Of a stretch of DNA of 64,000 nt, positions 13,501-16,879 are shown one piece after another. Made by a program: the position numbers and the translations under genes. The stretch's first letter is position 1. Each line of letters begins with the position of its first letter. This DNA is from Schmidtea polychroa (Eukaryota): positions 5,458,001 to 5,522,000 of the forward strand of contig CM097885.1 in the NCBI GenBank assembly GCA_044892525.1. The letters run 5' to 3'. Below the pieces are notes generated by a model. The model saw only the letters and a program-made list of their open reading frames with translations, was not told the DNA's origin and did not search any database.

Positions 13501-16500
13501 TTCTCTTTTTAAAAGTGCAAGAATGCTATACAAGAAGCACTTATGGTCGTTGTTTTTAACATTAATTATTGCATGTTTTAATTTTAATGCTGATGGGGTT
13601 TTTATATAGCTATGTCCGGATAATCTACTAACGGGTGCGTATTTCGTTAAAATAAAATCTATTTCTAAAATATTCATTACTCGCCACCCGCTTCCTAAAT
13701 AGGTGAATTGCTCAATCTTTTCATTTAATTTGCTCACCCCCTCGTTTATAAAGTTTGATGTAAAAACTTGAGCATTGTTTGAAAAATAATTATCCCGGAT
13801 CTCCCCATCTTTTTCAAATTTAATTAAAATTGTGAATTGAATTTTTACATTGCCCATCTTTTCTATTTCCTCTATTAATCTATCTTCAATTTTTGATGTT
13901 AGGGCTATTTTTACTAAGTTTTGATTTCTAATATCAAATTTTAAAGTTTTACGCGATCCGTTCAAATCGGATTCTACCATAGGTTCAAACAAAGAGCCGC
14001 CTATTTGGCATATGTTGAAAGACGTTGAAGCTACACATTCATCATTGATGACTATCACTTCTTGTTGTGTAATGGGTGCTTGTTGTGTAATAGGTGCTTG
14101 GTGTGTAAACGATGTTGAAGCTACACATTCATCTTTGCTGATGACTATCACTTCAGGTCGCGATAATTTATTAGGAATGCAATTTTTAATTAAACCAGCA
14201 GGTCTTTTAATAGAATCTTTTTTAATATTTATAATATCTTTTTTAATAATATTTATAGTATCTTTTTTAATAACATCTTTTTTAATAGAATCTGTTTTTT
14301 CTTTTATAATATTTTTTTTAATATTTTTTAAATCTTTTTTAATATCTTTTTTTATATCTTTTTTAATAGTATTTTTTGGTAAATTTTTTGATAAATTTTT
14401 TTGTAATTTTTTTTTATTTATTTTTTTAAATAAAACATTTTTTGATATCGAAAATTGCCCTAAGTGACTATGATGTTTATTAAAAAATTCCCTATATTTT
14501 ATTTTTTCGCTCGTTACACATTTGGGGCATATAAAAAAGTTGAGCGAATTAAACGTCTTTCTATAATACTTTTTCATTGTTCCATGACATTTATCACTAT
14601 GTCCATTTGCAGCTTGGCAATAGTTCGGATATAGTCTACCTGTTAAATAATAAAATTAAAGTTTTATTTTTTTTTTTTTCTAATTGTTATTAATTGTTAC
14701 ATCTATAAGGATTTATCATCATTTGTTATTTAATTCAAATGAACTATATAACAAATGATGATAAATCCTTATAGAAAATAGGTTAATATATTCGAGAGAA
14801 TATTAGAGAGATTTTAGTAGATAGGTCAGATTATTATATGAATATGTTAAATATTAGAGAGATTTTAGTAGATAGGTCAGATTATTATATGAATATGTTA
14901 AATATTAGACGAGTCAGATTATTATTATTATTATTATTATTATTATTATTATTATATTGAAGAGAAGTAGCTACATGCTTACTGTAGACTACATTATTAT
15001 ATTAAAGAGAAGTAGCTGCATGCCCACTGCAGACTACTATGTAGCTACATGCTTACTGTAGACTACATTATTAATAATATTATTAATATTATTATTATTA
15101 TTATTATTATTATTATTATTATTATTATTATTATTATTATTATTATTATTATTATTATTATTATTATTATTATTATTATTATTATTATTATTATTATTAT
15201 TATTATTATTATTATTATTATTATATTAAATAGAAGTAGCTGCATGCCCACTGCAGACTACTATGTAGCTACATGCTTACTGTAGACTACATTATTATAT
15301 TAAAGAGAAGTAGCTGCATGCTCACTGCAGACTACTATGTAGCTACATGCTTACTGTAGACTACATTATTAATAATATTATTAATATTATTAATATTATT
15401 ATTATTATTATTATTATTATTATTATTATTATTATTATTATTATTATTATTATTATTATTATTATTATTTTAACTATTGTAGATGCACATTGCAAACTAC
15501 AAGGATTTTATAACTATAATTTTGTAATCACTTTTTTAAATACTTTGATTATATTTCAAAAAAAACATAGTATTTTCTTCATAATTTTCGTCATATTTTC
15601 ATCATTTTCATCATAATTTTGGTCATATTTTCATCATAATTTTGGTCATATTTTCATCATAATTTTGGTCATAAATCATTTTCATTTTGTTCATAAATTT
15701 TCGTCATTATTTCATAATAAATCATAATTTTGGTCATAAATCATTTTCATCATAATTTTCTTCATAATTTGGGTATAAATCATTTTCTTCGTAAATCATA
15801 AATCATAAATCATCATAATTTGGGCATAAATCATAAATCATCATAATTTGGGCATAAATCATTTTCAGCATAATTTGGGCATAAATCATAAATCATCATA
15901 ATTTGGGTATAAATCATTTTCTTCATAATTTGGGCATAAATCATTTTCTTCATAATTTGGGCATAAATCATTTTCTTCATAATTTGGGCATAAATCATTT
16001 TCTTCATAAATTCATAATTCATTTTCTTCATAAGTTTGATCATAAGGTTCATCAAAATATTTAAGAAATTTTCATCAAAAATTAAAGAAATTTTCATCAT
16101 AATATTTAAAAAAGTGTTTACGAAATTTTAATATCAAAAAATATATATATATATATATATATAAAATAAATAAATATATCTTACATTGTGATTCAATGTC
16201 AGAATCATCCTCCGAAGAGTCATGAGGAATTCGGTCCACCACATCAGAAGACTCATTTTCCGATACCTTTGAAGAGTCATTTTCCATAAAATCTTCCATA
16301 CTATTATTATTTTCGTCTTCATCGATGTCGACATTGAAATAAGGGGCATTAAACGCTAAAAAATAAAATTTTTAAAAATAAATTACTAAAGTAAAATAAA
16401 TTTACTTTTTTCTTTGATAACCTTTTTTTGCCCAACATCAATAACTGGGGCAGCCGTTTGACCAAGAAAAACGACATCATCGTCGCTATTTTCATTAATA

Positions 16501-16879
16501 ACATCATTTTGTTCGAGAAAAACGACATCATCGTCGCTATTTTCATTAATAACATCATTTTCTGTAATGAAAAAAAAATTACTTTAATAAAAATTAAAAT
16601 AAATTTACCTCTTTCTTTGAAAACGGTGGCATCACTTTGTCCAATAAAGATTACATCTTCATTTTCATTTTCTGTAATGAAAATTAATTTAATAAAAAAT
16701 TAAAATATTAAATTTACCAAAGATATTTTCCACATTTAAAATGGCATCGTTTTCGGTAACTTCATACCAGTCGAACGGTTCTAAAATAAAATATAATAAA
16801 AATCGAATAAAAATAATAATAATTTACCGTTAGTCAAAAGACCTCTCAATACTCGATTATTATTATTGTTGGTTTCCAT
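10591..16879 (-). CDS. polB: P2 protein-primed DNA polymerase B polyprotein (spliced leader, Zn finger, TP, vOTU-like, endoVII-like, Pol), predicted 1517 aa
   Basis: Open 1328-aa ORF with all pPolB motifs; predicted exons 16879-16828, 16780-16718, 16671-16609, 16561-16406, 16355-16185, 14639-10591, all phase 1 and in frame. Confidence 0.88.
15575..16035. repeat. ~30-bp tandem array CATAATTTGGGCATAAATCATTTTCTT in the long pPolB intron
   Basis: Direct inspection. Confidence 0.85.

What the first reader, a model, noticed from the sequence alone, without database searches (positions are those of the whole stretch)
14639..16879. pPolB acquires a multi-exon acidic leader through a long intron that creates the first Zn-finger Cys
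Seen: P1, P2 and P4 all have an acceptor AG|G(T/C) 62 nt upstream of the ATG of the MKKYY motif. P2 and P1 have upstream phase-1 short exons ending GAA TCA (C/A)AA T|GT, so splicing gives ES(Q/K)-C-RLYPNYC or C-KFYPKYC, matching unspliced CSLYKFC in P3. Both leaders share DW..(V/I)TEND.IL...NIF. Known: adenovirus pol and pTP also receive their N-terminus from a distant exon. All-phase-1 exons would allow in-frame skipping. ORF finders miss this.
Basis: partly seen in the sequence, partly recalled or inferred. Interest (0 to 1): 0.8.

Follow-up and report, generated by a model that had tools for sequence, protein, structure and literature searches.

The report
Spliced leader on Polinton DNA polymerase
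The DNA polymerase gene of a virus-like jumping element (Polinton/Maverick) in this animal genome is split by ordinary host-type introns, and splicing adds a hidden, repeat-expanded leader and completes a zinc-binding cysteine, although such core genes are usually described as intron-free.

Summary
Confirmed. In nested Polinton elements, pPolB starts in 4-7 short upstream exons joined by 40-56 nt GT-AG introns. A longer intron follows, and its split codon gives the first Cys of a ~60-residue twin zinc module. 41 of 48 copies examined give an open exon chain, 40 ending in Cys; every intron is phase 1. Contigs of two probable RNA runs (one study) skip all four short introns (subfamily forms). 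One contig joins the leader to the polymerase exon (28-29 letters on that side, below the tool's 31). The joined form is absent from the assembly. 40 of 65 relatives from elsewhere carry the same Cys unsplit. Corrections: P1's leader is not acidic; a Merlin transposon lengthens P1's intron; P3 is itself spliced (six phase-1 introns); exon duplication is seen, skipping is not. Leader function is inferred: probably a disordered SUMO/host-factor-binding precursor segment trimmed at a GG site before the terminal protein. The scan found this layout before on other DNA of this genome, without RNA. New variant of a known kind.

The parts
8254..27378 (-). P2, a Polinton/Maverick element: TIRs, 6-bp target duplication AACAGC, pPolB, protease, DJR capsid, integrase, A32-type ATPase; inserted in the pol gene of P1
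16929..17048 (-). Putative promoter of the spliced pol gene: two ATTGG (CCAAT) boxes at 17048 and 16995, TATAAA at 16963, TCACAATT initiator-like motif at 16936
   Evidence: TATAAA..TCAYAATT found upstream of the leader in 34 of 48 stretches; function inferred
16828..16879 (-). P2 leader exon 1 (52 nt, start ATG; amphipathic LxxLL-type motif)
   Evidence: intron 1 (16781-16827, 47 nt) skipped exactly by contigs of X1 and X6
16718..16780 (-). P2 leader exon 2 (63 nt; the most conserved leader motif, W-Y-x-V-[TS]-E)
   Evidence: donor at 16718 joined to a downstream exon start in X6
16609..16671 (-). P2 leader exon 3 (63 nt; SIM-like hydrophobic core with acidic flank)
   Evidence: introns 2 and 3 are related to each other (0 of 500 shuffles)
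16406..16561 (-). P2 leader exon 4 (156 nt; internal duplication, two SIM-like motifs)
   Evidence: intron 4 (16356-16405) skipped in X1 contigs
16185..16355 (-). P2 leader exon 5 (171 nt; acidic, Ser-rich; its last base T is the first base of the Cys codon)
14640..16184 (-). P2 long phase-1 intron (1545 nt; mini- and microsatellites)
   Evidence: 397-2119 nt across copies; junction seen in one X1 contig
10591..14639 (-). P2 main pol exon (4049 nt): twin zinc module about 14463-14639, Lys-rich linker with SIM-like motifs, Q-I-G-G at 14007, terminal-protein, vOTU, exonuclease and palm regions (domain names by motif position, inferred). Spliced frame 1517 aa versus 1328 aa from ATG 14577
52488..52950 (-). 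P1 leader: four exons (52950-52905, 52853-52791, 52734-52660, 52613-52488), introns 51, 56, 46 nt, all phase 1; not acidic
50867..52487 (-). P1 long intron (1621 nt), containing a Merlin/IS1595-type transposon at 51298-52471 with 8-bp target duplication
49455..50866 (-). 5' piece of the P1 pol exon (the gene is interrupted further on by nested elements)
43930..44195 (+). P4 acceptor and zinc-module exon start; no leader upstream in this copy
   Evidence: leader present in L071-L073
28560..32569 (-). P3 pol, a divergent lineage with no coding leader: start codon split A|TG, six phase-1 introns (50, 42, 41, 48, 75, 43 nt), zinc-module Cys unsplit
   Evidence: not tested against RNA

Best explanation
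SHOWN or strongly supported: the Polinton pPolB gene of this lineage is a host-style spliced gene. A TATA/initiator-type promoter downstream of the protease gene drives a transcript of 4-7 short phase-1 exons plus one large exon. Removing the last, long intron supplies the T of a TGY codon and completes the first ligand of a C-x6-C-x5-H-x3-C / C-x2-C-x14-H-x2-H twin zinc module that begins pPolB in many related elements. Because all leader exons are symmetric, they gain and lose whole exon+intron modules without breaking the frame. INFERRED: the product is a polyprotein of disordered leader, zinc module, linker, GG site, terminal protein, vOTU and polymerase. The leader is a short-linear-motif platform (LxxLL-type helix, Trp-acidic motif, variable SIM-like repeats, acidic tract) that docks the precursor on SUMO-modified or other nuclear host factors where replication starts. 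It is probably removed with the zinc module at the GG site when the terminal protein matures, like adenovirus pTP to TP. About 0.93 for the gene structure; about 0.4 for the docking-and-trimming role.
For: Gene structure. 33 of 48 stretches modelled from the promoter motif and 8 more from the Trp exon; 40 of these 41 end in a split Cys. Internal intron phase was not constrained, yet 119 of 119 and 24 of 24 are phase 1. Internal exons take 29 different lengths, while intron lengths fall in all three mod-3 classes. L050 has four tandem 99-nt exon modules. The base before the long donor is T in 12 of 12 representatives and in 0 of 46 short donors. pN 0.27 vs pS 0.76 on the 20 codons before ATG 14577 (6 families, 15 pairs). 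RNA-type contigs: intron 1 skipped in X1 and X6; exon-2 donor joined in X6; subfamily intron 3 and intron 4 skipped in X1 (checked). One 127-nt X1 contig at depth 28.2 leaves exon 5 with 24 letters matching the pol exon start of L043/L046 at 23 of 24. None of these joints appears in table 5 for DNA-like X2 (4397 records laid). Joined motif: 0 matches in 781 Mb; unspliced acceptor motif: 1354, reversed control 118. Module: 40 of 65 relatives have the full motif with a contiguous first Cys, 25 within the first 8 residues; AlphaFold model of P3's module has mean pLDDT 87.9. Role: SIM-like motifs exceed shuffles in 5 of 10 leaders, and LxxLL is present in 7 of 10. A GG site precedes the TP region in 6 of 7 proteins, three fitting the adenain consensus (M/L)xGG quoted in PMC7998265. 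TP-vOTU architecture from 10.1101/2024.03.18.585575.
Against: The RNA support comes from two runs of one study whose RNA status is a guess. The long junction rests on one contig with 28-29 letters on the pol side, under the tool's 31-letter bridging rule, and it comes from a sister copy, not demonstrably from the window's P2. Unspliced contigs across introns 1 and 2 are as deep or deeper (intron 1 in X1: 8.9 unspliced vs 3.56 spliced). 203 loose ends were not shown, so absence in X2 is not fully visible. X7 laid 0 records. I chose the copies, favouring long open pol frames. 7 of 48 gave no chain, L040 is broken in its last leader exon, and L071 has lost its acceptor. Phase 1 scored best for the last donor in 10 of 10, but narrowly in three. 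For the role: P1's abundant family has no acidic or SIM-like leader and P3 has no leader at all. SIM-like counts are not above shuffles in 5 of 10, and the SIM pattern is my own, from a recalled consensus. Q at P4 in this lineage's Q-I-G-G does not fit the published adenain consensus. No binding, zinc or cleavage data exist.
Confidence: 0.8

Rival explanations
1. The long intron is a regulatory switch. Retention or intronic polyadenylation gives a free leader protein, an E1A- or 'Oncoid'-like early regulator, while splicing gives the polymerase, so one promoter yields two products.
For: Adintovirus 'Oncoid' genes sit upstream of PolB and combine short motifs, acidic CK2 sites and zinc motifs (10.1101/697771, section 6). 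The leader has its own conserved motifs. Intron retention would end it after 36 (P2) or 7 (P1) residues. Unspliced contigs are common in X1 and X6.
Against: No LxCxE and no CR1 pattern in 10 of 10 leaders. The retained-intron tails are not conserved between P1 and P2. The unspliced contigs can be DNA carry-over or pre-mRNA from more than 1000 copies. The poly-T ends in X6 lie at A-rich stretches within the leader, not in the long intron.
Confidence: 0.15
2. The splicing is real, but the leader is a largely neutral spacer. Introns entered the 5' end, upstream sequence became coding, and only the frame and the Cys are selected.
For: P3 and most outside relatives start directly with M-x(1-6)-C. 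Leaders vary from about 100 to 230 residues, and P1's differs in composition. High-copy families exist without SIM-like repeats.
Against: The W-x-x-[VI]-[TS]-E motif and the exon-1 helix persist across families whose zinc modules are only about 50% identical. SIM-like repeats recur in the leader and, in relatives without a known leader, in the linker (P0001, P0002, P0016, P0064).
Confidence: 0.3
3. Chance GT-AG sites in AT-rich DNA: the polymerase starts at ATG 14577 from its own promoter, and the leader exons are not part of it.
For: The Met of M-K-K-Y-Y is kept in the copies shown, and several outside relatives were called from that same Met.
Against: 0 of 300 shuffles reach the model score; purifying selection upstream of that Met; junction contigs; no promoter motif in the intron. 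Starting there would delete all four ligands of the first finger.
Confidence: 0.04

Closest known systems
Polinton/Maverick elements (eupolintoviruses, 'Alpha' adintoviruses) with TP-vOTU-pPolB polyprotein (10.1101/2024.03.18.585575; 10.1101/697771)
   Same: TIRs, 6-bp target duplication, rve integrase with chromodomain, A32 ATPase, adenain-type protease, DJR capsid and PF03175-type polymerase.
   Different: Core genes are reported intronless in vertebrate Mavericks (PMC8097293), in a nematode Maverick whose cargo genes do have introns (10.1101/2022.07.12.499685) and in mavirus-like EMALEs (PMC8547959). Here pol has 4-7 spliceosomal introns, and the protease and integrase genes appear to have one each. 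The leader and twin zinc module upstream of TP are not described in the passages I read.
Adenovirus E2B transcription unit (Ad-pol and pTP mRNAs)
   Same: Polymerase and terminal-protein mRNAs have shared 5' exons and a long splice to the terminal coding exon (PMC11304566); adenain trims the TP precursor (PMC7998265).
   Different: In adenoviruses pTP and pol are separate proteins, and the upstream exon gives only a few residues (recalled). Here TP and pol are fused, the leader is 100-230 residues, it evolves by exon duplication, and the splice completes a zinc ligand. Analogy, not homology.
Adintovirus 'Oncoid' genes / E1A-like motif hubs (10.1101/697771)
   Same: Position upstream of PolB; acidic Ser-rich tract; short linear motifs next to zinc-binding motifs.
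   Different: No LxCxE or CR1 motif (0 of 10); not a separate ORF but fused to pol by splicing.

Membership tests
Polinton/Maverick | [quoted passage not shown] | tested here: met
   P2 8254-27378, TIRs, AACAGC on both sides
Polinton/Maverick | Protein-primed family B polymerase (PF03175) | tested here: met
   PF03175 on the P1 3' piece, P3 and P4. P2 itself gave no PF03175 hit but groups with P1 and P4 at 100/100 and has the palm motifs
Polinton/Maverick | Retroviral-type integrase, packaging ATPase, adenain-type protease | tested here: met
   rve E 1.2e-4 plus Chromo, Pox_A32 E 3.7e-7; Peptidase_C5 E 0.0019. The rve and protease hits are below the curated cut-offs, and this copy's protease frame is broken
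Polinton/Maverick | Double jelly-roll major capsid protein | tested here: met
   Atlas hits at 0.97-0.98, with PF21738 on 65% of one cluster; no Pfam or PDB sequence hit
TP-vOTU-pPolB polyprotein | PRD1-like terminal-protein fold followed by vOTU with catalytic Cys and His | not tested
   Assigned only by motif position and the paper's passages; motifs recalled, region not folded
Spliceosomal (U2-type) introns | GT-AG ends and precise removal from RNA | tested here: met
   Ends; exact removal in contigs of X1 and X6; the RNA status of the runs is a guess
Adintovirus Oncoid / E1A-like | LxCxE or CR1 Rb-binding motif | tested here: not met
   0 of 10 leaders
Known zinc-finger families | Sequence or fold match of the twin zinc module | tested here: inconclusive
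   Only scattered weak Pfam hits; no Foldseek match at E<=0.001; best structural Z 2.7, rmsd 4.2 over 51 residues, to Serrate/ARS2
Poly-SIM SUMO-binding proteins | Binding to SUMO through hydrophobic-core, acid-flanked motifs | not testable with these tools
   Motif counts above shuffles in 5 of 10 leaders; pattern recalled; binding not tested

The most novel reading that the evidence does not exclude
These Polintons have evolved a eukaryote-style, exon-shuffled accessory module on their replication polyprotein. It is a poly-SIM, E1A-like leader whose valency is tuned by duplicating symmetric phase-1 exons. It targets the polymerase/vOTU precursor to SUMO-marked, silenced chromatin or nuclear bodies, is coupled to replication by a splice that completes an undescribed zinc module, and is shed at a SUMO-like GG site.
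Probability: 0.25. Interest if true: 0.75.

Novelty: new variant of a known kind. Interest (0 to 1): 0.52.

Why it matters
Polinton core genes are generally annotated as single ORFs and reported as intronless. If their polymerase is spliced, several things follow. ORF-based surveys truncate pPolB and may score intact copies as degraded. The elements must be transcribed and spliced in the nucleus with host-sized introns, which may limit the hosts they work in (inference). The true N-terminus includes a previously unnoticed zinc module with at least 40 relatives elsewhere, plus a fast-evolving motif array that is a testable candidate for the virus-host interface in an animal where Polintons are PIWI targets (PMC8532177; host group inferred). 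That all of at least 10 independent pol intron positions are phase 1 is unexplained.

Tried and rejected
No relative was found for the first 70 residues by word search, for the module in viral contigs, by alignment among longer proteins, or in the Atlas; only the exhaustive HMM search found them. A single-sequence fold of the P2 module was uninformative (pLDDT 43.5). Fold and PDB searches gave no usable match, which does not show the fold is new. The run search listed no holder on record as RNA; X7 laid nothing. My first exon finder picked upstream ORFs in many loci and was replaced by one anchored on the promoter. Exon skipping was considered for the X6 joint 16496-16718 and rejected: the two letters between fit an exon2-exon3 junction of the L042-type subfamily. 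Processed retrocopies as the source of the joints were rejected. A composition explanation of the phase bias (G is commonest at codon position 1) gives about 0.45 per site, roughly 3e-4 for 10 sites, so it is insufficient alone. The protease intron is phase 2. Literature: ten searches found no report of a spliced Polinton pPolB or of SIMs in one. Kapitonov and Jurka 2006, Krupovic and Koonin 2015 and the 2024 MMBR review were not held. Repbase annotations and supplements were not seen and could already note such exons.
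Full report
Setting. The window is G000:C1:5458001-5522000 of a 781-Mb assembly with four very large contigs and mostly 21-38% GC in 2-kb bins. With introns of 40-56 nt this looks like a planarian flatworm; that is my inference, and an earlier scan note (e1-7879924) says the same. The window holds nested Polinton/Maverick elements. P2 spans 8254-27378 with TIRs and the 6-bp duplication AACAGC. It encodes pPolB, an adenain-type protease, a DJR capsid, an rve integrase with chromodomain, and an A32 ATPase. P2 interrupts the pol gene of P1. 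P4 is an internally deleted element, and P3 belongs to a divergent lineage.

Observation. The three acceptors are where stated, 62 nt before the M-K-K-Y-Y ATG. P2 has five leader exons and P1 four. All are open and joined by AT-rich GT-AG introns in phase 1, and the last split codon is Cys in both. The spliced P2 frame would be 1517 aa, against 1328 aa from the first in-exon ATG. Shuffling the leaders never approached the observed score (0 of 300 each). Four details need correcting. P1's leader has 9% D+E, against 26% in P2. P1's long intron contains a Merlin/IS1595-type transposon at 51298-52471 with an 8-bp duplication, and ten other P1-family copies have 397-436 nt. P3 keeps its Cys unsplit but has six phase-1 introns, with its ATG split by the first. 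The window's P4 lacks a leader.

Copies. An acceptor motif occurs 1354 times, against 118 for the reversed control. I fetched 46 copies chosen for spread of identity and mostly long pol frames, so the set leans towards intact copies; the third batch was 6 of the 20 planned. Of 48 stretches including P1 and P2, 33 were modelled from a shared TATAAA..TCAYAATT promoter, 14 lacked that motif in the fetched stretch, and 1 had no open chain. Eight of those 15 were then modelled from the Trp exon; 6 lacked it and 1 stayed closed. Forty of the 41 models end in a split Cys. L040 is broken in its last leader exon, and L071 has lost its acceptor. The program fixed only the last phase, yet 119 of 119 and 24 of 24 internal introns came out in phase 1; these are not independent events. 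Internal exons take 29 lengths from 51 to 216 nt while intron lengths vary freely. L050 has four tandem 99-nt exon modules, and P2's introns 2 and 3 are related to each other: the leader grows by exon duplication. The base before the long donor is T in 12 of 12 representatives and in 0 of 46 short donors, as expected if the Cys codon is selected. The 20 codons before ATG 14577 show pN 0.27 against pS 0.76. The family promoter motif is absent from both long introns.

RNA. No run on record as RNA holds the stretch. Laying 16170-17100 on three RNA-guess runs and one DNA-like run gave 81, 26, 0 and 4397 records. X1 and X6 (one study) each have a contig that removes intron 1 exactly. X6 joins the exon-2 donor to a downstream exon start. 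X1 joins the ends of subfamily intron 3 and removes intron 4 (depth 10.7, five loose ends); these were checked against the exon ends printed. One 127-nt X1 contig at depth 28.2 follows exon 5 to 16181 and continues with 24 letters matching the start of the pol exon of L043/L046 at 23 of 24. The four letters in between are shared by the intron start and the exon start. That is the predicted long junction, from a sister copy. It has 28-29 letters on the pol side, short of the tool's 31-letter rule. None of these joints is listed for X2, though 203 loose ends were cut from view. The joined motif has 0 matches in the assembly, so retrocopies do not explain it. Against a clean picture, unspliced contigs across introns 1 and 2 are as deep or deeper in X1 and X6; they could be DNA, pre-mRNA or retention. 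P1's and P3's junctions were not tested.

The zinc module. A profile of 12 natural sequences found 61 proteins at E<=0.001 among 1.84 billion. With four full-length polymerases, 40 of 65 carry the complete C-C-H-C plus C-x2-C..H..H motif with a contiguous first Cys, 25 of them within the first 8 residues and several as tandem repeats. Many of the other 25 were called from the same internal Met, as an ORF finder would do here. About a dozen short hits end in G-K/N plus a hydrophobic tail, which looks like read-through of a phase-1 donor in other organisms (inference). AlphaFold on P3's module with 38 sequences gives pLDDT 87.9. No Pfam family or solved fold matches clearly. So the splice restores an ancestral ligand. 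The leader is most likely a gain of the P1/P2/P4 clade (100/100), since P3 and most relatives start at M-x-C; that polarity is inferred from an unrooted tree of 9 rows.

How it probably works. Downstream of the module lie a Lys-rich linker with SIM-like motifs, a GG site, and regions that by motif position are the terminal protein, vOTU and polymerase described in 10.1101/2024.03.18.585575 (passages), where vOTU is proposed to cut behind TP. A GG precedes the TP region in 6 of 7 proteins. Three fit the adenain consensus (M/L)xGG (PMC7998265, passages). This lineage has Q-I-G-G, and two of its small putative core proteins have Q-x-G-G. The leader has an LxxLL-type helix in 7 of 10 representatives, a W-x-x-[VI]-[TS]-E motif across families, SIM-like repeats above shuffle level in 5 of 10, and no LxCxE or CR1 motif in 10 of 10 (SIM and LxxLL patterns recalled). 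My best reading is a disordered docking segment of the TP precursor that engages SUMO-modified or other nuclear factors and is trimmed on maturation (about 0.4). A near-neutral spacer (0.3) and a leader-only regulatory product (0.15) remain open. P1 (no acidic or SIM-like leader) and P3 (no leader) show that it is not needed by all lineages.

Comparison and novelty. The element meets the Polinton criteria tested. Core genes are reported intronless in vertebrate Mavericks (PMC8097293, passages), a nematode Maverick (10.1101/2022.07.12.499685, passages) and EMALEs (PMC8547959, passages). Intron-generating transposons occur in dinoflagellate polinton-like elements (PMC12166617, passages). Passages of 10.1101/2023.08.22.554363, PMC6431247, PMC12220804, PMC12721341 and 10.64898/2026.07.28.741278 showed no spliced pPolB. 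Adenovirus pol and pTP mRNAs share 5' exons with long splices (PMC11304566, passages), which is an analogy only. Oncoid genes lie upstream of PolB (10.1101/697771, passages and section 6), but the defining motif is missing here. Planarian Polintons are PIWI targets (PMC8532177, passages). Ten searches found no report of this structure; three key reviews or papers were not held, and Repbase and supplements were not seen. The scan had noted the same layout three times on other DNA of this genome without RNA.

Verdict. The feature is real and is a new variant of a known kind. The gene structure is about 0.93 likely; the leader's function is open. Interest 0.52.

Noticed in passing
window 28560-32569 (-) and the leaders of P1/P2: All of at least 10 independent intron positions in Polinton pol genes here are phase 1, including six in P3 at sites that are intron-free in P1, P2 and P4. 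Codon composition predicts about 0.45 per site. Unexplained.
   Followed up: partly
window 17672-17709, 53596-53632 (-) and 20962-21042 (-): The protease gene appears to have a 37-38 nt phase-2 intron and the integrase an 81-nt microsatellite-filled phase-1 intron, so other core genes are probably spliced too. Both protease copies in the window are frameshifted further on.
   Followed up: partly
G000, matches: Many P3-family copies, and copies of one P4-related family, occur as back-to-back inverted pairs, mostly 2-6 kb apart, suggesting large palindromic pol-only elements. All 150 listed P3 matches are 100% identical over 75 residues.
   Followed up: no
window 51298-52471: A Merlin/IS1595-type DNA transposon (329-aa ORF, PF12762) with an 8-bp target duplication sits 16 nt inside P1's long intron; it is absent from the ten other P1-family copies fetched.
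   Followed up: yes
window 22743-23207 (+) and 9279-9818 (-): P2 carries a short TBP homologue (PF00352, E 1e-15) facing the ATPase and a RING-finger gene behind pol. The TBP was noted earlier by the scan (e1-7879962); the leader promoter contains the same TATAAAC box.
   Followed up: no
window 36308-42719: An LTR retroelement (two 1035-nt repeats, 99% identical; gag-like ORF 37704-39188) is inserted in P4.
   Followed up: no
window 58656-60323 (+): An intronless ABC-F-like ATPase ORF of 555 codons (PF00005, PF12848) outside the Polintons.
   Followed up: no
P0007, P0015, P0030, P0034, P0039, P0043, P0051: In outside relatives the zinc module occurs in 2-3 tandem copies, or behind unspliced acidic or C2H2-containing extensions.
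   Followed up: partly
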